Shown: one piece after another, positions 1 through 5,507 of the stretch | Layout of the letters: the number at the start of each line of letters is the position of its first letter | How positions within the stretch are numbered: the stretch's first letter is position 1 | IMG/VR virus record: IMGVR_UViG_3300034045_000042 | Location: 1-5,507 of that record | Length of the DNA stretch: 5,507 nucleotides | Reading direction: 5' to 3' (one strand) | Origin: a virus | Program-made: the position numbers and the translations under genes | Notes under the pieces: model-generated | The model's database searches: none | Told to the model about the DNA's origin: nothing | The model's input: only the letters and a program-made list of their open reading frames with translations

Positions 1-94
1 TTTCAGTTTTCGGTGATTATTGTCGCGATCTTATAGAAGTTGTTGACGGTCAATTTCACAATTATGGTGGCGAACGACCATTTTCTAAAAAAGA
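1..94. repeat. Terminal direct repeat, copy 1 (circular-closure overlap)
   Basis: Base-by-base comparison shows it is identical to 5414..5507. Confidence 0.95.
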
Positions 95-1067
95 TCATTA
101 TTTGCAATACGAAAATTGGCAAAATGAACAAGGCCAGCGTGTCTATTTCGTGGTTGATGAAGCGCATCTGGCAATGGGTGCAGGTTCATGTGATAAAGAA
201 TTAAAAGAGTTTTTCTCGATGCACCGGCATTATGGTTTTGACATTCTTTTGTTGACTCAGAATTTTCGAAAAATTGATAGAGACGTTAGAGATATGATTC
301 AAATCGGCTATCGTGCGATTAAAAAAAGCATGATAGGTCAAGACGATAAATATATTCTTAAAGTTCATGACGGCGCTAGTAGTTCAACTAGTTCAGTTGT
401 AAATACTTTTGAACGTGAGTATGAAAAGCGTTACTTTCCTTTTTATCAGTCTCACACTAAAAGTAATCAATCTATTAATGAAGCTACGACTAAAGATGTA
501 AAAAAATGGTATAAGCACCCTGCCATTATTCTTTCACCGTTTTTTATTTTTTTTGGTCTAGGTTTCCTTATTAATTCTGTTTCAGCTTTTAATCCCAATA
601 AAAAAATCGAACATGCTGAAAAGTCGTCTTCAACTTCACCAGTTGAAAAGTCGGCTTCAACTTCTCCAGTTGAGCAATCTTCTGCTAAAACTGCTTTAAA
701 AAAAGAATATAAAAATAATGATGATAATGATTTAATTTCTAAATCATTGAATGAATTGATTCTCGAAAGAGAAGTAAAACAGTCGAAAAATTACCACCCC
801 TTTTACAAAGTTAAATTATCTGTTTCGGGTTTTGCTGATTACTTAGATGTTAATCATCGAGTTAAAAAATTATGGATTACTGCCTCGCAAAACGGCCAAG
901 CAGTCTTTACTATTTCAACCCAAGATTTAATGCTTGCGGGCTATAAAGTTTTTGTATTATCTGAATGTTTAGTAAAAGTTGTTTTCTACGAATATTCTGA
1001 TTATTTAACTTGCGACGCACCAACACAAACAGTTAAATTTAACAACGAAGAAATTACTAGGGACTAA
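1..1067 (+). CDS. Zot/pI-like assembly ATPase, 3' portion. It is 5'-truncated by the window edge, the reading frame starts at nt 3, and it continues the ORF that begins at 5278.
   Basis: The frame is open from nt 3 (SVFGDYCRDL...) to the TAA at 1065..1067. It contains a Walker B-like YFVVDEAH and an HRHYGFDILLLTQN motif typical of Zot-family P-loop NTPases. A single TM segment (HPAIILSPFFIFFGLGFLINSV) is followed by a C-terminal domain of about 170 aa. The TTG start at 102 in the ORF track is an artefact of the window cut. Confidence 0.9.
   Translation, partial: SVFGDYCRDLIEVVDGQFHNYGGERPFSKKDHYLQYENWQNEQGQRVYFVVDEAHLAMGAGSCDKELKEFFSMHRHYGFDILLLTQNFRKIDRDVRDMIQIGYRAIKKSMIGQDDKYILKVHDGASSSTSSVVNTFEREYEKRYFPFYQSHTKSNQSINEATTKDVKKWYKHPAIILSPFFIFFGLGFLINSVSAFNPNKKIEHAEKSSSTSPVEKSASTSPVEQSSAKTALKKEYKNNDDNDLISKSLNELILEREVKQSKNYHPFYKVKLSVSGFADYLDVNHRVKKLWITASQNGQAVFTISTQDLMLAGYKVFVLSECLVKVVFYEYSDYLTCDAPTQTVKFNNEEITRD
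618..671 (+). repeat. 27-bp tandem direct repeat x2 inside the pI ORF, encoding EKS(S/A)STSPV twice
   Basis: gaaaagtcgtcttcaacttcaccagtt (618..644) is followed by gaaaagtcggcttcaacttctccagtt (645..671), with 2 mismatches. The repeat is in frame and lies just after the TM segment. Confidence 0.9.
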
Positions 1068-1083
1068 AATTCGAGCGCGTTAG

Positions 1084-1131
1084 AAAATTTAGGGGAGGGG
1101 GCCCCTCTGGGGAAGGGGTTCCATAAATTTT
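1084..1131 (+). other. G/C-rich structured intergenic element (nested hairpins or G-quadruplex motif). Candidate packaging signal or origin-type structure; function unknown.
   Basis: An AAAATTTA (1084..1091) / TAAATTTT (1124..1131) inverted repeat closes the segment GGGGAGGGGGCCCCTCTGGGGAAGGGGTTCCA. Inside it are a 13-nt near-palindrome GAGGGGGCCCCTC (1095..1107) and GGAA-GGGG-TTCC (1111..1122). There are four G-runs of at least 4 (1092-1095, 1097-1101, 1109-1112, 1115-1118) separated by loops of 1, 7 and 2 nt. Confidence 0.6.
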
Positions 1132-1163
1132 ATAACGTGCAACAAGGTAAGGTGTCACATTAC

Positions 1164-2288
1164 ATGCGTATTAATAATAAATATATAGATTCACATTTGC
1201 AAGCCGGTTACTTTATTGATTGGCTTACTGTATCTCAAGAATATAGCGAACCTATTCCTATTTTTTGCCAAGACATCACAAGAAAAATTGATGCAGATAC
1301 TGGCGAATTAAAGTACGAAACACGCACTTTTCGCCAAGAATCTGGCTCGTATGCGACTAGTATTAGCATTAAATCAGATGGCACTAGGCTCACCATTTCT
1401 GGTAACCCTAGCCGTTTTAACCGCCCTGATAATCTTTTCGGTTATACCTCTTTTGGTCAGTGCATTAATGTTTATAACGAATTATTATCAAAATTGTGTT
1501 TACCTGAATTAACTTATTCAGCTAATTTGATACCCGTTCAATCTAATACTGGTAAAATCCGCTTTAGTGGTGATGGTTGTCGTATTTCACAAGTGCACAT
1601 AACTAAAAATTTTTCAGTTGGTAAGGGTAATGAAAAACGTTTTATCAGGTCCTTAGGCTCTTTTGCTTATCGAAATAAAATGCCCTTTTTGTATCCAGAT
1701 GGTAACACTATTGATTGGTTGAAAGGTTCTCGTCGTTTATATATTAAGCTATATAACAAGTCTCAATCTTTAATAAGAGAACGTAAAAAACTTGAACGTT
1801 TATATAATGATGATGAATTGCTATATTATGACAATGTAATTGATTTTTGTATTGATGAGGGCGTTGTACGTCTTGAGTATGAATTTAAGTCGAATTATCT
1901 TAATGATAAATTTACGCCATTTCTAGGTTTTTTCGATGTTAATCAGTTACTTGATTTTAATTTTATTGAAGAAAAACTAAAGAATATGAAAACTAATGCA
2001 ACTGATTATTTATCAATAGCTGATTTACTTATAGAAAATGAGGTTTGTAAAACTCGTCAATCTGCTAATGCTACCCAGTCCTACTATATGATGTGGCTGA
2101 ATGGAATGGATATATCTAATGTTTTGAATCGTTCTCAATTTTATGTTCATAAAAAACGATTAAAAGCTATTGGTATTGATATTACTGTCCCCATGAATGT
2201 TTCTACATTACCAATTCGAGTTAGTAGACAACAAGAAATTTCAGTTAATGATTTAAATATTCCGTCTTGGTATCTTCGCGCAATCTAA
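1164..2288 (+). CDS. gpII-family replication initiation (nicking) protein
   Basis: Several blocks resemble Ff gpII as I recall it. IDWLT lies near the N-terminus. NPSRF..DNLFG matches SPAKVLQGHNVFG. ISQVHITKNF matches ISRIDATF. GVVRLEYEFKSNYL matches GLVRFEARIKTRYL. The C-terminal ...IPSWY... matches ...RPDWY.... I prefer the ATG at 1164, which has TAAGGTG (1148..1154) 9 nt upstream, over the GTG at 1137 given by the ORF track. Confidence 0.85.
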   Translation: MRINNKYIDSHLQAGYFIDWLTVSQEYSEPIPIFCQDITRKIDADTGELKYETRTFRQESGSYATSISIKSDGTRLTISGNPSRFNRPDNLFGYTSFGQCINVYNELLSKLCLPELTYSANLIPVQSNTGKIRFSGDGCRISQVHITKNFSVGKGNEKRFIRSLGSFAYRNKMPFLYPDGNTIDWLKGSRRLYIKLYNKSQSLIRERKKLERLYNDDELLYYDNVIDFCIDEGVVRLEYEFKSNYLNDKFTPFLGFFDVNQLLDFNFIEEKLKNMKTNATDYLSIADLLIENEVCKTRQSANATQSYYMMWLNGMDISNVLNRSQFYVHKKRLKAIGIDITVPMNVSTLPIRVSRQQEISVNDLNIPSWYLRAI

Positions 2289-2289
2289 T

Positions 2290-2318
2290 GGGACGGTCTA
2301 GTAACACGTCCCTTTTTT
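2290..2318 (+). terminator. Rho-independent terminator downstream of the replication gene
   Basis: Stem GGGACG (2290..2295) pairs with CGTCCC (2307..2312) around an 11-nt loop. It is followed immediately by TTTTTT (2313..2318) and starts 2 nt after the gpII stop codon. Confidence 0.7.
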
Positions 2319-2331
2319 CCGGAGTTCCGGA
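2318..2331. repeat. TCCGGA-GT-TCCGGA, two copies of a self-complementary hexamer (both direct and inverted repeat)
   Basis: Read directly from the sequence. It sits between the terminator T-tract and the stop codon of the minus-strand ORF. It could be a second small hairpin for convergent transcription or a protein recognition site. Confidence 0.4.
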
Positions 2332-2335
2332 CTTT

Positions 2336-2497
2336 TCATTTTTTTTCTTTCTTGTTTCTTAGCTCTCTTTCTTCTATAAGTATTTGAATTATTTCGTCAT
2401 TTGATAAAATTCTCCCGTAAATAGGGTATATCTCTATTTTTATCCTTTCTAGCTCGTTTTTTGTTTCTTCATAAACTCTGATTGTTGTCTGTTTCAT
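2336..2497 (-). CDS. Small ribbon-helix-helix (Arc/Mnt/CopG-like) transcriptional regulator, 53 aa
   Basis: My own translation of the minus strand gives MKQTTIRVYEETKNELERIKIEIYPIYGRILSNDEIIQILIEERELRNKKEKK*. The ORF is absent from the ORF track, presumably because it is below the length cut-off. The N-terminal beta-strand-like TTIRV is followed by a helix. YGRILSNDEIIQILIEE parallels P22 Arc NGRSVNSEIYQRVMESF. An AGGT lies 9 nt upstream of the ATG. This is the only minus-strand gene and it is divergent from the main promoter. Confidence 0.6.
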   Translation of the reverse strand: MKQTTIRVYEETKNELERIKIEIYPIYGRILSNDEIIQILIEERELRNKKEKK

Positions 2498-2525: not shown

Positions 2526-2553
2526 TTGACAATTTACAAATTATACTTAATAT
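2526..2553 (+). promoter_or_regulatory. Sigma70-type promoter for the rightward operon
   Basis: A perfect -35 TTGACA (2526..2531) is separated by a 16-nt spacer from the -10 TAATAT (2548..2553). An A/T tract upstream (about 2508..2522) resembles an UP element. The promoter lies about 40 nt upstream of the first + strand gene. A perfect TATAAT on the minus strand (plus coordinates 2540..2545) lies inside its spacer. Confidence 0.65.
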
Positions 2554-2880: not shown

Positions 2881-3036
2881 ATGCTTTTAGTTGAGTCTGA
2901 CATTATGTTTCTTTGCAATCAATGCAAACATTTGTTCTCAATTAATCAACGTAAAACCGTTGAGCGTTTTGGCTTTGTTCTTTGCGCTTGTCCACGTTGC
3001 TTATCTGTGGATGTTCAAATTGCGTGGGGTCAATAA
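2881..3036 (+). CDS. Small zinc-ribbon protein (51 aa; CNQC...CACPRC)
   Basis: My own translation gives MLLVESDIMFLCNQCKHLFSINQRKTVERFGFVLCACPRCLSVDVQIAWGQ*. The ATG directly abuts the TAA of the previous gene, and the stop overlaps the next start (TAATG at 3034..3038). The two Cys knuckles, CxxC and CxCxxC, are about 20 residues apart. An alternative start is the ATG at 2905. Confidence 0.5.
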   Translation: MLLVESDIMFLCNQCKHLFSINQRKTVERFGFVLCACPRCLSVDVQIAWGQ

Positions 3037-3535: not shown

Positions 3536-4941
3536 TTCTTAATTGTATCAAAAAGGGCTTTATAACGGCTCTTTTTTTTGTGTCTTACAGCTCTATATCT
3601 GGTGTTATAGATGCACCATCCTCTGACCCAAAAGTCGTTTCTGGGTATATTCTCACTTGTACTAATTCTGCGTACGGTACAACTTCTATAGATATTGGGC
3701 TTGTGCCGTCCAAAACTAATGAAAATGGTTTATCTGGTTGTACATCTTGGTATATTAGTGAGATGACGCGAAAATTAATGTCGCACGGTTATTCATCTGT
3801 TTCTGTTCTTTCCGTTCAAGATTACACCGTCGTATTTGAAACAGAAACTGAATCCGGTTCCAAAAATACACAATCTGGTAATATTACATTTTTCTTTGGT
3901 TCTTATTCGTCTACTAAAACTTGTCCCAATGACACAAATATACAAGATTCTTATCCCCTAGATACAAATCAAGACGGCGAAATAGATCGTTGTGTTAATC
4001 CTGACATATTACCTATATATGACGATTGTTCCATTAATGACGTATATAACGTATCTGTTACTGATTCACGTGCTTGCTACACCAAACCTAACGGCTCTAA
4101 GTGTGCTGTTCAAGCTGTTTCCATTGGCGGTTCTTCTGTATATATGGGCGCAGAGGGTAACTGTTATGTTAATGATGAGCAATTAAATGATATTACAGCT
4201 AATCCTATTAATATTACCGAACCTGACCCTGATTTAAATAATTGTACTGATAATGGCGGTCTTTTAGCGTGTGCAGAAGATCCAAATAACGTTTGTGAAA
4301 ATGCTGGTTCTGTTGATTCTAACACTGCCCTTTCTTGTAATGCGCAATGTGGTTTTGTAAATGGTCAATTCTTATGCTTTGATGTTGATTCTGATTCTGA
4401 CGGTATCCCTGATTATTCTGATCCTGATATGATTAACACTGATACTGATACTGGCACTGATACTGGTACTGATACTGATACTGGTACTGATACTGATACT
4501 GGTACTGATACTGGTACTGATACTGGTGGTGTTGTTGTTGGTAATGATGGTAATGTTATTGTTAATGTTCCTGATACAGACCTTTCCCCAGTTGTTGATG
4601 CTATTAAAAAATTAAATGGTACTCGCACCGATGCTGATACTAATGTTTCTAATGGTTTAACATCTTTCTGGGAGTCCGAATATCCTGATGGTTTTAACGG
4701 TTTGCTCGATCAACAAATTACACAATTTAAATCTACTAGATTTTTTACTTTTTTAGATTCTTTTAATGCGTCTATTCCCGCGGGTTCTGAATATGATAAT
4801 TCATTCTGCTTTAATTTGGGTAAGTTAGGCAATTTCGGTTGCCATTCGCTTGATGTTCCGTCCTATGTTTGGTCAGCAATAAGAATTTTTATTCTCATTA
4901 CTTCGGCTTTTGCATGTCGTAAAATTATTTTTGGGGGTTAA
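3532..4941 (+). CDS. pIII-like minor coat / host-adsorption protein
   Basis: I prefer the GTG at 3532, with AGGGGG (3521..3526) 5 nt upstream; the alternative is the TTG at 3517. It begins with a signal-peptide-like N-terminus (MILNCIKKGFITALFFVSYSSISG). A Cys-rich N-terminal region with 14 Cys follows, then a 30-aa TD/TG repeat linker. The C-terminal domain has a two-Cys loop (FCFNLGKLGNFGC) followed by a TM anchor (VWSAIRIFILITSAFACRKIIFGG). This matches the architecture of Ff g3p. Confidence 0.8.
   Translation: MILNCIKKGFITALFFVSYSSISGVIDAPSSDPKVVSGYILTCTNSAYGTTSIDIGLVPSKTNENGLSGCTSWYISEMTRKLMSHGYSSVSVLSVQDYTVVFETETESGSKNTQSGNITFFFGSYSSTKTCPNDTNIQDSYPLDTNQDGEIDRCVNPDILPIYDDCSINDVYNVSVTDSRACYTKPNGSKCAVQAVSIGGSSVYMGAEGNCYVNDEQLNDITANPINITEPDPDLNNCTDNGGLLACAEDPNNVCENAGSVDSNTALSCNAQCGFVNGQFLCFDVDSDSDGIPDYSDPDMINTDTDTGTDTGTDTDTGTDTDTGTDTGTDTGGVVVGNDGNVIVNVPDTDLSPVVDAIKKLNGTRTDADTNVSNGLTSFWESEYPDGFNGLLDQQITQFKSTRFFTFLDSFNASIPAGSEYDNSFCFNLGKLGNFGCHSLDVPSYVWSAIRIFILITSAFACRKIIFGG
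4438..4527 (+). repeat. Hexanucleotide tandem repeat, 15 units of ACTGAT/ACTGGY, encoding (Thr-Asp/Thr-Gly)15
   Basis: Read directly from the sequence. The units are actgat x9, actggt x5 and actggc x1, all in frame within the pIII-like ORF, with nearly uniform codon choice. Confidence 0.95.
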
Positions 4942-5277: not shown

Positions 5278-5507
5278 ATGGCTATTAATGGTATACAAGG
5301 TAAGCCGGGTGGCGGTAAATCTTATGAAGCTGTCGTAAATCATATAATCCCAACTATTACGCGAGATAGACGAAAAGTTGTTACTAATTTACCCTTGAAT
5401 GTTGAACATTTTGTTTCAGTTTTCGGTGATTATTGTCGCGATCTTATAGAAGTTGTTGACGGTCAATTTCACAATTATGGTGGCGAACGACCATTTTCTA
5501 AAAAAGA
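5278..5507 (+). CDS. Zot/pI-like assembly ATPase, N-terminal portion. It is 3'-truncated by the window edge and continues at nt 3 through the circular junction.
   Basis: The sequence starts MAINGIQGKPGGGKSYEAV..., giving a Walker A motif GKPGGGKS. The SD GGGAG (5264..5268) lies 9 nt upstream. 5278..5413 plus 1..1067 gives 1,203 nt, or 400 aa plus stop, with the frame preserved. Confidence 0.92.
   Translation, partial: MAINGIQGKPGGGKSYEAVVNHIIPTITRDRRKVVTNLPLNVEHFVSVFGDYCRDLIEVVDGQFHNYGGERPFSKK
5414..5507. repeat. Terminal direct repeat, copy 2 (circular-closure overlap)
   Basis: It is identical to 1..94. Confidence 0.95.

What the first reader, a model, noticed from the sequence alone, without database searches (positions are those of the whole stretch)
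1084..1131. G/C-rich island between pI and gpII that fits both a canonical G-quadruplex motif and a nested-hairpin fold
In an otherwise AT-rich genome this 48-nt intergenic segment stands out. An 8-bp stem (AAAATTTA/TAAATTTT) encloses GGGGAGGGGGCCCCTCTGGGGAAGGGGTTCCA. That core holds two small GC hairpins (GAGGGG-G-CCCCTC and GGAA-GGGG-TTCC). It also holds four G-runs of at least 4 with loops of 1, 7 and 2 nt, which fits the G4+N1-7 quadruplex consensus. The two folds are mutually exclusive. The + strand of an inovirus exists as naked or coated ssDNA, so such a structure can actually form. In Ff, hairpins in the intergenic region serve as the packaging signal and minus-strand origin. This is the best candidate here for such a cis element, and a G4 in that role would be unusual. 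It also sits directly upstream of the replication gene. There it could attenuate read-through from pI or overlap a weak promoter (TGGGGA-N17-TATAAC, with TATAAC at 1131..1136).
Basis: partly seen in the sequence, partly recalled or inferred. Interest (0 to 1): 0.7.

Follow-up and report, generated by a model that had tools for sequence, protein, structure and literature searches.

The report
Conserved G-rich hairpin after phage gene I
The G-rich island is the tip of a 66-base hairpin that recurs, always on the viral strand just after the assembly gene, in many filamentous phages; it most resembles the hairpin where phages IKe and M13 start copying their single strand, and its textbook G-quadruplex motif is real but not shared by most relatives.

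Summary
The sequence is exactly as described, and it is not a chance feature. It holds the only G4 motif in the 5,413-nt circular genome. The real inverted repeat is longer than reported (1075-1140) and is the most stable local fold in the genome.

It belongs to an apparently undescribed family of hairpins. These are found downstream of gene I (zot) in about half of 137 related inovirus loci, always on the + strand. Named phages Vf12 and Vf33 carry it, and fs1 and VGJ carry divergent copies. Each member has a long stem that differs between phages but always pairs. The stem is capped by a conserved tip: purine tract, C-run/loop/G-run mini-hairpin, purine tract.

A canonical G4 motif occurs in only 2 of 67 distinct members, though the GGGGAGGGG...GGGGAGGGG tip recurs in three lineages.

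The closest annotated element is the first stem-loop of the IKe/Ff minus-strand origin, with 14 of 16 tip bases identical to IKe. The plus-strand origin maps elsewhere, at 2290-2331.

Best reading: a complementary-strand origin hairpin (about 0.4). Main rival: a packaging signal (about 0.3). Neither has been tested by experiment.

The parts
1075..1091 (+). 5' arm of the outer stem (GCGCGTTA-G-AAAATTTA)
   Evidence: Inverted repeat I1. It is paired in the DNA fold, with P(1084-1131) = 0.99 and P(1075-1140) = 0.90. In relatives this arm has no conserved sequence but always pairs with its partner.
1092..1101 (+). 5' purine tract GGGGAGGGGG (G-runs 1 and 2). It corresponds to the family's (R)GGAGGG(R) tract and to the 5' G bulge of the IKe/M13 minus-origin stem-loop.
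   Evidence: Covariance-model alignment, family listing, and IKe and M13 folds.
1102..1112 (+). Apical mini-hairpin CCCC-TCT-GGGG as aligned to the family (G-run 3). In the thermodynamic ensemble of this particular sequence the C-run pairs mainly with G-run 4 instead.
   Evidence: Model R1, built without the window, aligns these columns to the family's inner stem. GGGGGCCCCTCTGGGG (1097-1112) matches IKe 6353-6368 with 2 mismatches.
1113..1123 (+). 3' purine tract AAGGGGTTCCA (G-run 4). TCC 1120-1122 can pair with GGA 1094-1096.
   Evidence: The family equivalent is (G)AGGTG(N)CC.
1124..1140 (+). 3' arm of the outer stem (TAAATTTT-A-TAACGTGC).
1164..2288 (+). Gene II (rolling-circle replication initiator). 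It starts 24 nt after the hairpin, and AAGGTG at 1149-1154 could serve as its ribosome-binding site.
   Evidence: Pfam Phage_CRI and G2P_X_C. Homologues align from about residue 14 of the ATG-1164 product.
2290..2331 (+). Putative plus-strand origin. It comprises the hairpin GGGACG-GTCTAGTAACA-CGTCCC (2290-2312) and the inverted repeat TCCGGAGTTCCGGA (2318-2331). It is context for the finding, not part of the G-rich element.
   Evidence: The module is conserved just after gene II in Rep relatives, with compensatory stem changes: AATGCGG/CCGCATT and GGGAGG/CCTCCC. It has the same 6-bp stem and 11-nt loop as the M13 nick hairpin GTCCAC-GTTCTTT^AATA-GTGGAC, where the nick lies at T5780^A5781 (PMC5405960).

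Best explanation
The G/C island is the tip of a 66-nt hairpin (1075-1140) that forms only in the single-stranded + strand. It belongs to a widespread family of inovirus hairpins placed downstream of gene I. I propose it is the complementary (minus)-strand origin hairpin, the counterpart of the first stem-loop of the Ff/IKe minus-strand origin.

Proposed mechanism: after the viral strand enters the cell and is coated by host SSB, the long stem snaps back and stays as naked duplex. The conserved G-run/C-run/G-run tip is then recognised by a conserved host enzyme, which makes the primer that converts the single strand into the replicative form. In Ff that enzyme is RNA polymerase holoenzyme.

In this minimal genome it is the only long hairpin, so it may also serve as the assembly start (packaging) signal.

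Shown here: the fold potential, strand specificity, position, conservation of the tip, compensatory variation of the stem, the resemblance to the IKe/M13 origin hairpin, and a plus-strand origin located elsewhere.

Inferred: recognition by a host polymerase, priming, and any packaging role.
For: 1. A model of the tip built from 12 other phages, without the window, finds exactly one site in the window: 1090-1124 on the + strand, 22.6 bits, E = 0.0055.
2. Across 137 loci chosen only for gene I homology, 74 sites scored E < 1, all on the gene I strand.
3. A 19-base DNA pattern found 82 stretches in IMG/VR. Of these, 68 have a gene I homologue on the same strand and none has one only on the opposite strand.
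4. The flanks form long stems in nearly all of 67 distinct members. Cognate flanks pair at -13.9 kcal/mol against -5.3 for non-cognate pairs (p = 4e-33), although flank identity is only 29%.
5. The IKe GenBank record annotates 6333-6385 as a minus-strand origin stem-loop. Its tip GGGGGCCCCTTTGGGC is the only match in IKe to the window's GGGGGCCCCTCTGGGG, with 2 mismatches and 0 of 200 shuffles matching. The IKe and M13 hairpins share the architecture: an AT-rich stem, a 5' G bulge and a C-run/T-loop/G-run tip.
6. The tip is conserved in phages of Pseudoalteromonas, Colwellia, Vibrio, Photobacterium, Rheinheimera, Alcanivorax, Variovorax and Acidovorax, with gene I identity down to 27%. This fits a host-machine target better than a phage-specific protein.
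7. In Vf12 the element lies downstream of a canonical terminator, which argues for a DNA-level role.
8. It is the most stable local fold in the genome. The plus-strand origin is accounted for at 2290-2331.
Against: - No second hairpin like Ff/IKe hairpin [C], which carries the primer start in Ff (my own knowledge), follows the element in the window.
- The family models do not reach the IKe or M13 hairpins at any useful E-value. The link therefore rests on the window-type tip and on shared architecture.
- The outer stems carry no conserved -35/-10-like sequence, so an Ff-style promoter mimic is not evident.
- Ff and IKe lack the 3' purine tract.
- The position directly after the last morphogenesis gene is that of the Ff/IKe packaging signal.
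- Close Rep relatives lack the element.
- No experiment exists for any member.
Confidence: 0.4

Rival explanations
1. Packaging (morphogenetic) signal. The hairpin stays uncoated in the complex of + strand and gene V-type protein. It protrudes at one end and is recognised by gene I protein and the small tip proteins to start extrusion, as hairpin [A] does in Ff and IKe.
For: - It lies immediately after the last morphogenesis gene, as the Ff and IKe signals lie after gene IV. IKe's is annotated at 6141-6196, and f1's is at 5511-5564 per the bioRxiv preprint 10.1101/2023.12.30.573655.
- It is a long imperfect + strand hairpin of similar size.
- It travels with the gene I module, not the Rep module (against 34-36 and 43).
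- It is the only long hairpin in the genome.
- Packaging signals of non-Ff inoviruses are largely unmapped.
Against: - It shows no sequence likeness to the Ff, IKe or Xanthomonas signals.
- Known signals differ between phage groups, whereas this tip is conserved across very distant hosts and down to 27% gene I identity.
- The best annotated match is an origin hairpin, not a packaging hairpin.
Confidence: 0.3
2. A functional G-quadruplex/hairpin switch. The four G-tracts fold into a quadruplex in the single strand, and that form rather than the hairpin tip is what is recognised, for example by the gene V-type protein.
For: - The window has a canonical motif with a G4Hunter score of 1.89.
- The quadruplex is the predicted minimum inside the outer stem.
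- The tip GGGGAGGGG-CCCC-NNN-GGGGAGGGG recurs in three lineages with very different gene I proteins.
- Many members (e.g. L030, L017, L046) read GG(G)-A-GGG...GGG-A-GG(G), that is 1-nt side loops with a long central loop; I did not count them.
- Ff gene V protein is reported to bind G-quadruplexes (PMC9231167).
Against: - Only 2 of 67 distinct members have a canonical motif, and 20 of 67 do if a 12-nt central loop is allowed. Roughly a fifth have just two G-runs of three or more G.
- The C-run always competes for a G-run.
- The IKe and M13 counterparts have too few G-tracts.
Confidence: 0.1
3. An RNA-level element. It would act as a terminator, attenuator or 3' stabiliser at the end of the gene I transcript, or as an operator controlling gene II translation.
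For: - The pattern scan lists 1098-1122 plus ATAAATTTTA as terminator-like.
- As RNA the hairpin folds at -30 kcal/mol.
- No promoter was found for gene II, so read-through is likely.
- The apical loops are often of the GNRA, UUCG or CUUG type.
- In Ff, gene V protein represses gene II through an operator in the gene II mRNA (PMC5405960).
Against: - The scan finds 5 terminator-like sites where shuffles give 3.6.
- There is no consistent T-run after the stems.
- Vf12 has a separate canonical terminator upstream of the element.
- The downstream gene differs among members.
- No Rfam family matches.
Confidence: 0.08

Closest known systems
First stem-loop of the Ff/IKe minus-strand origin (IKe 6333-6385, as annotated in NC_002014; M13 about 5623-5671, called hairpin [B] from my own knowledge)
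   Same: - It is a + strand intergenic hairpin with an AT-rich stem (CTAAATCG/CGATTTAG).
- It has an unpaired 5' G-run and a C-run/T-rich loop/G-run tip.
- The IKe tip GGGGGCCCCTTTGGGC differs from window 1097-1112 at 2 of 16 positions.
   Different: - Ff and IKe have a second hairpin that carries the primer start. The window has none.
- Ff and IKe lack the 3' purine tract.
- In Ff and IKe the origin lies just upstream of the plus-strand origin. Here gene II lies between them.
- The family models do not detect the Ff or IKe hairpins.
Ff/IKe packaging signal (hairpin [A]; f1 5511-5564, IKe 6141-6196)
   Same: It is the first intergenic structure after the last morphogenesis gene, and it is a long imperfect hairpin on the + strand.
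   Different: There is no sequence or tip similarity. The function has been tested only for Ff and IKe.
Unannotated hairpin in Vibrio phages Vf33, Vf12, VALG_phi8, K04M1, V5 and FR1, with divergent copies in fs1 and VGJ
   Same: These belong to the same family. The Vf12 site 4662-4700 scores 22.6 bits, the same as the window. The records carry no annotation there. The fs1 and VGJ copies read GGAGGGGCCC-ACT-GGGAGGAC.
   Different: - The Vibrio copies lie about 150 nt after gene I, behind a terminator.
- In Vf12 and fs1 they sit a few nt upstream of the hairpin CCCCCG-AAKCTGTATYA-CGGGGG, which looks like a nick hairpin.
- Most are not canonical G4 motifs.
Xanthomonas inovirus packaging signal (phiLf-UK nt 332-357; Yeh et al., bioRxiv 2023)
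   Same: It is a short G/C-rich + strand hairpin that has been shown to drive packaging.
   Different: It has a different sequence (CGCGGGCC-TCTACAACC-GGCACCGTG). It has no long outer stem, lies inside gene II, and works in either orientation.

Membership tests
Post-gene-I G-rich-tip hairpin family (defined here) | Tip consensus: purine tract, C-run/loop/G-run hairpin, purine tract | tested here: met
   Model R1, built without the window, hits 1090-1124 on the + strand at 22.6 bits, E = 0.0055. It is the only hit in the window. R2 gives 25.2 bits, but its training set included the window.
Post-gene-I G-rich-tip hairpin family (defined here) | Lies on the gene I (viral) strand, downstream of gene I | tested here: met
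   The tip model match begins 23 nt (stem 8 nt) after the gene I stop. All 74 family hits are on the + strand. Of 82 pattern hits, 68 have gene I on the same strand.
Post-gene-I G-rich-tip hairpin family (defined here) | Long outer stem maintained by compensatory change | tested here: met
   The window has a 17-bp stem. Across the family, cognate flanks pair at -13.9 kcal/mol against -5.3 for non-cognate pairs, p = 4e-33.
Ff/IKe minus-strand origin | Stem-loop with a 5' G bulge and a C-run/T-loop/G-run tip (first hairpin) | tested here: met
   The IKe site 6353-6368 has 2 mismatches in 16 and 0 of 200 shuffles match. Folds are and the alignment.
Ff/IKe minus-strand origin | An adjacent second hairpin carrying the primer start | tested here: not met
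   Only a weak 4-bp fold follows at 1147-1163. No other strong hairpin lies nearby.
Ff/IKe minus-strand origin | Statistical sequence and structure homology of the family to the Ff and IKe hairpins | tested here: not met
   R1 and R2, run with filters off, give no hit at the IKe or M13 hairpins.
Ff/IKe minus-strand origin | Primer synthesis on the SSB-coated single strand by host RNA polymerase | not testable with these tools
   This needs in vitro priming or a test of rifampicin sensitivity of the conversion from single strand to replicative form.
Ff/IKe packaging signal | Long + strand hairpin directly after the last morphogenesis gene | tested here: met
.
Ff/IKe packaging signal | Sequence likeness to the Ff or IKe signal | tested here: not met
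   There are no model hits. The IKe 6141-6196 sequence is unlike the window element.
Ff/IKe packaging signal | Needed in cis, and in one orientation, for encapsidation | not testable with these tools
   This needs a transducing-particle assay.
Canonical intramolecular G-quadruplex | Four G-tracts of at least 3 with loops of 1-7 | tested here: met
   The quadruplex is the predicted minimum with ViennaRNA's quadruplex term.
Canonical intramolecular G-quadruplex | G-tracts conserved in homologues | tested here: not met
   2 of 67 members are canonical, and 20 of 67 if a 12-nt central loop is allowed. About 13 of 67 (roughly a fifth, my count from the listing) have only two G-runs of three or more G.
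Canonical intramolecular G-quadruplex | K+-dependent folding | not testable with these tools
   This needs CD, UV melting or polymerase-stop assays.
Intrinsic (rho-independent) terminator | G/C hairpin followed directly by a T-run | tested here: inconclusive
   The window is listed by the scan, but the scan is no better than shuffles (5 sites against 3.6). The family has no consistent T-run. Vf12 has a separate terminator upstream.
Xanthomonas inovirus packaging signal | Stem consensus GGX(A/-)CCG(C/T)G with T and C in the loop | tested here: not met
   No CCG(C/T)G occurs in 1075-1140.
XerCD dif-like attachment site | A TTATGTTAAAT-type XerD arm with a partner arm | tested here: not met
   The window has no intergenic match with 2 or fewer mismatches. 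Relatives carry one 50-100 nt after the hairpin.

The most novel reading that the evidence does not exclude
The conserved tip is a hairpin/G-quadruplex switch built into a filamentous-phage origin or assembly hairpin. The two purine tracts (GG(G)AGGG...GGGAGG(G), with 1-nt A loops and a long central loop holding the C-run) would fold into a quadruplex in the single strand. Flipping between the two forms would decide whether the strand is primed for replication or captured for packaging, for example through a gene V-type protein that prefers quadruplexes. The window, L074/L160 and L158/L161 would be the strongest four-layer versions.
Probability: 0.1. Interest if true: 0.8.

Novelty: new variant of a known kind. 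Interest (0 to 1): 0.6.

Why it matters
Outside Ff and IKe, and a recent Xanthomonas preprint, the cis signals that let filamentous phages copy and package their single strand are essentially unmapped. This analysis gives a concrete, testable candidate shared by many marine, Vibrio and betaproteobacterial inoviruses, including culturable ones (Vf33, Vf12, VALG_phi8, fs1). It comes with a searchable signature and a link to the IKe/Ff minus-strand origin hairpin.

If the link holds, the tip of that classic hairpin, not only its promoter-like stems, would be an ancient recognition feature. The signature could also be used to orient and annotate inovirus genomes and prophages. The four-tract versions offer a natural system for testing whether a G-quadruplex forms and matters in a viral single-stranded DNA genome.

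Tried and rejected
- Megablast of the genome against GenBank phages found no match.
- A gene II search of IMG/VR found no relatives, and the exact 27-mer was not found there.
- Rfam gave nothing at E <= 1.
- Rep relatives at 48-53% identity (L001-L008) lack the element and have extra small ORFs instead. Conservation therefore had to be sought through gene I.
- MAFFT alignments of mixed tip types were out of register. I used a gapless seed of 12 sequences instead.
- Covariation within the inner stem is uninformative because the stem is almost invariant: 5 double changes.
- The metagenome scan for the four-tract tip returned mostly G+C-rich contigs with no gene I homologue. Only a few were convincing hairpins (L249/L260, L264, L265, L266).
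- Models R1 and R2 did not detect any hairpin in M13, IKe, If1, Pf1, Pf3, CTXphi, VfO3K6, phiLf-UK or phiAFP1.
- A dif-like site and the second conserved post-gene-I element of relatives are both absent from the window.
- Literature searches found no description of the motif. The Higashitani papers on the f1 minus-strand origin are not held.
- I considered a triplex reading of the G-run/C-run/G-run arrangement and rejected it on strand polarity and linker length. This is reasoning only.

Full report
**The genome.** The window is a complete circular inovirus genome of 5,413 nt with a 94-nt terminal overlap. It has about 34% G+C.
- Gene I (Zot family) runs from 5278 across the junction to 1067.
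- Gene II (Phage_CRI plus G2P_X_C) runs from ATG 1164 to 2288.
- A gene V-sized ORF, two small ORFs, gene VIII, gene III and gene VI follow.
- A reverse 53-codon ORF (2336-2497) and a strong promoter-like site (2526-2553) lie in the second intergenic region.
- The finding lies in the 96-nt gap between gene I and gene II.

**The observation.**
- It is the only quadruplex motif on either strand, and four of the nine runs of four or more G in the genome sit here.
- Only 6 of 2000 dinucleotide-preserving shuffles have any G3+ motif, and none has four G4+ runs within 30 nt. The G4Hunter score is 1.89.
- The inverted repeat is longer than reported, at 1075-1094 with 1121-1140. It is the longest in the genome.
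- As DNA the region folds at -19.8 kcal/mol, z = -6.1. It is the most stable 80-nt window of the genome, z = -5.0.
- Two other metagenome contigs from different samples carry the identical sequence, so they add no variation.

**Relatives.**
- The closest gene II relatives (48-53% identity) do not have the element. Between gene I and gene II they have small extra ORFs and a different conserved stretch.
- Gene I relatives do have it. Phages with 53-59% identical gene I proteins carry AGGAGGG(R)-CCCGC-loop-GCGGG-AGGTG(N)CC right after the gene I stop.
- I collected 137 further loci by gene I homology from IMG/VR and GTDB genomes.
- A strict pattern found the motif within 60 nt of the stop in 56 of the 135 loci (stage-1 and stage-2 loci plus the window) whose gene I stop and downstream DNA were readable; two further matches lay about 160 nt downstream.
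- A covariance model built from 12 of these, without the window, finds one site in the window (1090-1124, + strand, 22.6 bits, E = 0.0055) and one in Vibrio phage Vf12.
- Over the 137 loci the model gives 74 sites at E < 1, every one on the gene I strand.
- A 19-base pattern searched blind in IMG/VR gives 82 stretches, mostly on contigs of 4.5-15 kb. Of these, 68 have a gene I homologue on the same strand and none has one only on the other strand.
- Hosts named in the records include Pseudoalteromonas, Colwellia, Rheinheimera, Photobacterium, Vibrio, Alcanivorax, Variovorax and Acidovorax.

**Anatomy of the family.**
- DNA folding of 67 distinct members gives, in nearly all, one long hairpin. 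An outer stem of about 10-25 bp encloses a purine-rich internal loop and a small G/C hairpin at the tip.
- The outer stems share no sequence (29% identity), yet cognate arms pair at -13.9 kcal/mol against -5.3 for arms taken from different phages (p = 4e-33). That is compensatory evolution.
- The inner stem is almost invariant (CCCG/CGGG), so it shows little covariation: 88.9% of cells paired and five double changes.
- Variants of the inner stem do occur, such as CCCAC/GTGGG, CCGC/GCGG and CCCTCC/GGAGGG.
- The apical loops are of the stable kinds: GAA, GCAA, CTTG and TTCG.

**How the window fits.**
- The family alignment puts CCCC-TCT-GGGG (1102-1112) at the tip, GGGGAGGGGG on the 5' side and AAGGGGTTCC on the 3' side.
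- For this sequence, nearest-neighbour folding prefers pairing of the C-run with the fourth G-run (P = 0.8).

**The quadruplex.**
- With ViennaRNA's quadruplex term and DNA parameters, a four-layer G4 inside the outer stem is the predicted minimum (-40.3 against -18.0 kcal/mol).
- It is not a family feature. A canonical motif occurs in 2 of 67 members (the window and L074). Four G3+ tracts occur in 20 of 67 if the central loop may reach 12 nt. Roughly a fifth have only two G-runs of three or more G.
- The symmetrical tip GGGGAGGGG-CCCC-NNN-GGGGAGGGG does recur in three lineages whose gene I proteins are only 24-34% identical to the window's.
- A metagenome scan for this tip returned mostly unrelated G+C-rich DNA.

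**What it is not.**
- *Plus-strand origin.* Directly after gene II lies GGGACG-GTCTAGTAACA-CGTCCC followed by TCCGGAGTTCCGGA. Rep relatives keep both, with compensatory stem changes. The form, a 6-bp stem with an 11-nt loop ending T^AA, matches the M13 nick hairpin, where the nick is T5780^A5781 (PMC5405960).
- *General terminator.* The terminator-like call in the window is no better than chance. The stems are not followed by T-runs. In Vf12 a canonical terminator lies between gene I and the element.
- *Promoter.* The proposed promoter did not meet the scan's threshold.
- *Other known elements.* There is no Rfam match, no dif-like site, and no likeness to the Xanthomonas packaging hairpin.

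**Closest known element.**
- The IKe record annotates a morphogenetic signal (6141-6196), two minus-strand origin stem-loops (6333-6385 and 6410-6438) and the viral-strand origin.
- The first minus-origin stem-loop reads CTAAATCG-TGGGG-GCCC-CTTT-GGGC-CGATTTAG. Its tip GGGGGCCCCTTTGGGC is the only place in IKe that matches window 1097-1112 within two mismatches, and no shuffle of IKe gives a match.
- The M13 counterpart (5623-5671) has the same build but a more diverged tip.
- The family models do not reach these hairpins. The link therefore rests on the window-type tip and the shared architecture, not on a family-wide statistic.
- The Ff and IKe packaging hairpins resemble the element only in position and size.

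**Judgement.** The element is a conserved structure of the single-stranded phase.
- I favour a complementary-strand origin hairpin (0.4), for three reasons. The only annotated element it resembles in sequence is one. Its tip is conserved across hosts and phage protein families, as a target of a host enzyme would be. In Vf12 and fs1 (and in L074) it abuts a nick-hairpin-like structure, much as the Ff minus-strand origin abuts the plus-strand origin.
- A packaging signal is the main rival (0.3), because of its position and because it is the only long hairpin in this small genome. A dual role is possible.
- A working quadruplex (0.1) and an RNA-level role (0.08) are less likely.
- About 0.1 remains for something not considered.

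**Novelty.** I found no annotation of the element in GenBank phage records that carry it and no description in the searchable literature. That library lacks most older phage papers. I rate it a new variant of a known kind of element, of moderate to good interest.

Noticed in passing
window 2290-2331: A putative plus-strand origin lies directly after gene II. It has the hairpin GGGACG-GTCTAGTAACA-CGTCCC and the inverted repeat TCCGGAGTTCCGGA. Both are conserved with compensatory stem changes in Rep relatives L001-L006, and the form matches the M13 nick hairpin.
   Followed up: partly
window 1-94 and 5414-5507: A 94-nt terminal overlap shows the contig is a complete circular genome of 5,413 nt. 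Gene I spans the junction (5278 to 1067).
   Followed up: yes
window 2336-2497 (- strand) and 2526-2553 (+ strand): A reverse 53-codon ORF begins MKQTTIRVYEETKNELERIK, which looks ribbon-helix-helix-like, although Pfam gives no hit. It faces the best promoter-like site in the genome (TTGACA-N16-TAATAT) upstream of the gene V-like ORF. This may be a repressor/operator module.
   Followed up: no
window 2881-3036: A 51-codon ORF has two CxxC pairs (a zinc-ribbon look, with weak sub-threshold HypA and zf-DNL hits). It sits where Ff has the small tip-protein genes. It could be a nucleic-acid-binding partner of a cis signal.
   Followed up: no
L002 910-1010, L003 5940-6050, L005 2560-2660, L016, L022-L025, L042-L050 (downstream of gene I): Many relatives carry a second conserved post-gene-I element, roughly AGC(A/G)TCGC(A/G)GA..AACTTCTTTGTT....TTAGCTTGCGAT..GGGGAGT, often with a GCGAAGC mini-hairpin. 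It occurs both with and without the G-rich hairpin. The window lacks it. Its function is unknown.
   Followed up: partly
L026, L029, L031, L038, L100 (50-100 nt after the hairpin): These loci carry dif-like sites (AACAACCCATAAATTACGTTATGTTAAAT). Several prophage contigs end there, which suggests XerCD integration in those relatives. The window has no such site.
   Followed up: partly
L157 (Vf12) 4708-4730; L275 (VfO3K6) 5340-5362; L156 (fs1) 3595-3619; L160: The hairpin CCCCCG-AATCTGTATTA-CGGGGG has a 6-bp stem and an 11-nt loop, like the f1 nick hairpin. In Vf12 and fs1 it follows the G-rich hairpin within about 10 nt; VfO3K6 has the nick-like hairpin but no typical G-rich hairpin before it. 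It is a likely plus-strand origin in these Vibrio phages and is unannotated in GenBank.
   Followed up: no
window 4435-4525: Gene III contains a run of ACTGATACTGGT-type repeats encoding (TD/TG)n. This is probably a flexible linker between the domains of the adsorption protein.
   Followed up: no
window 613-680; L010: Gene I has a short internal duplication (KSSSTSPVEKSASTSPVE). A 97% identical variant from another sample is 9 residues longer (409 against 400 aa).
   Followed up: no
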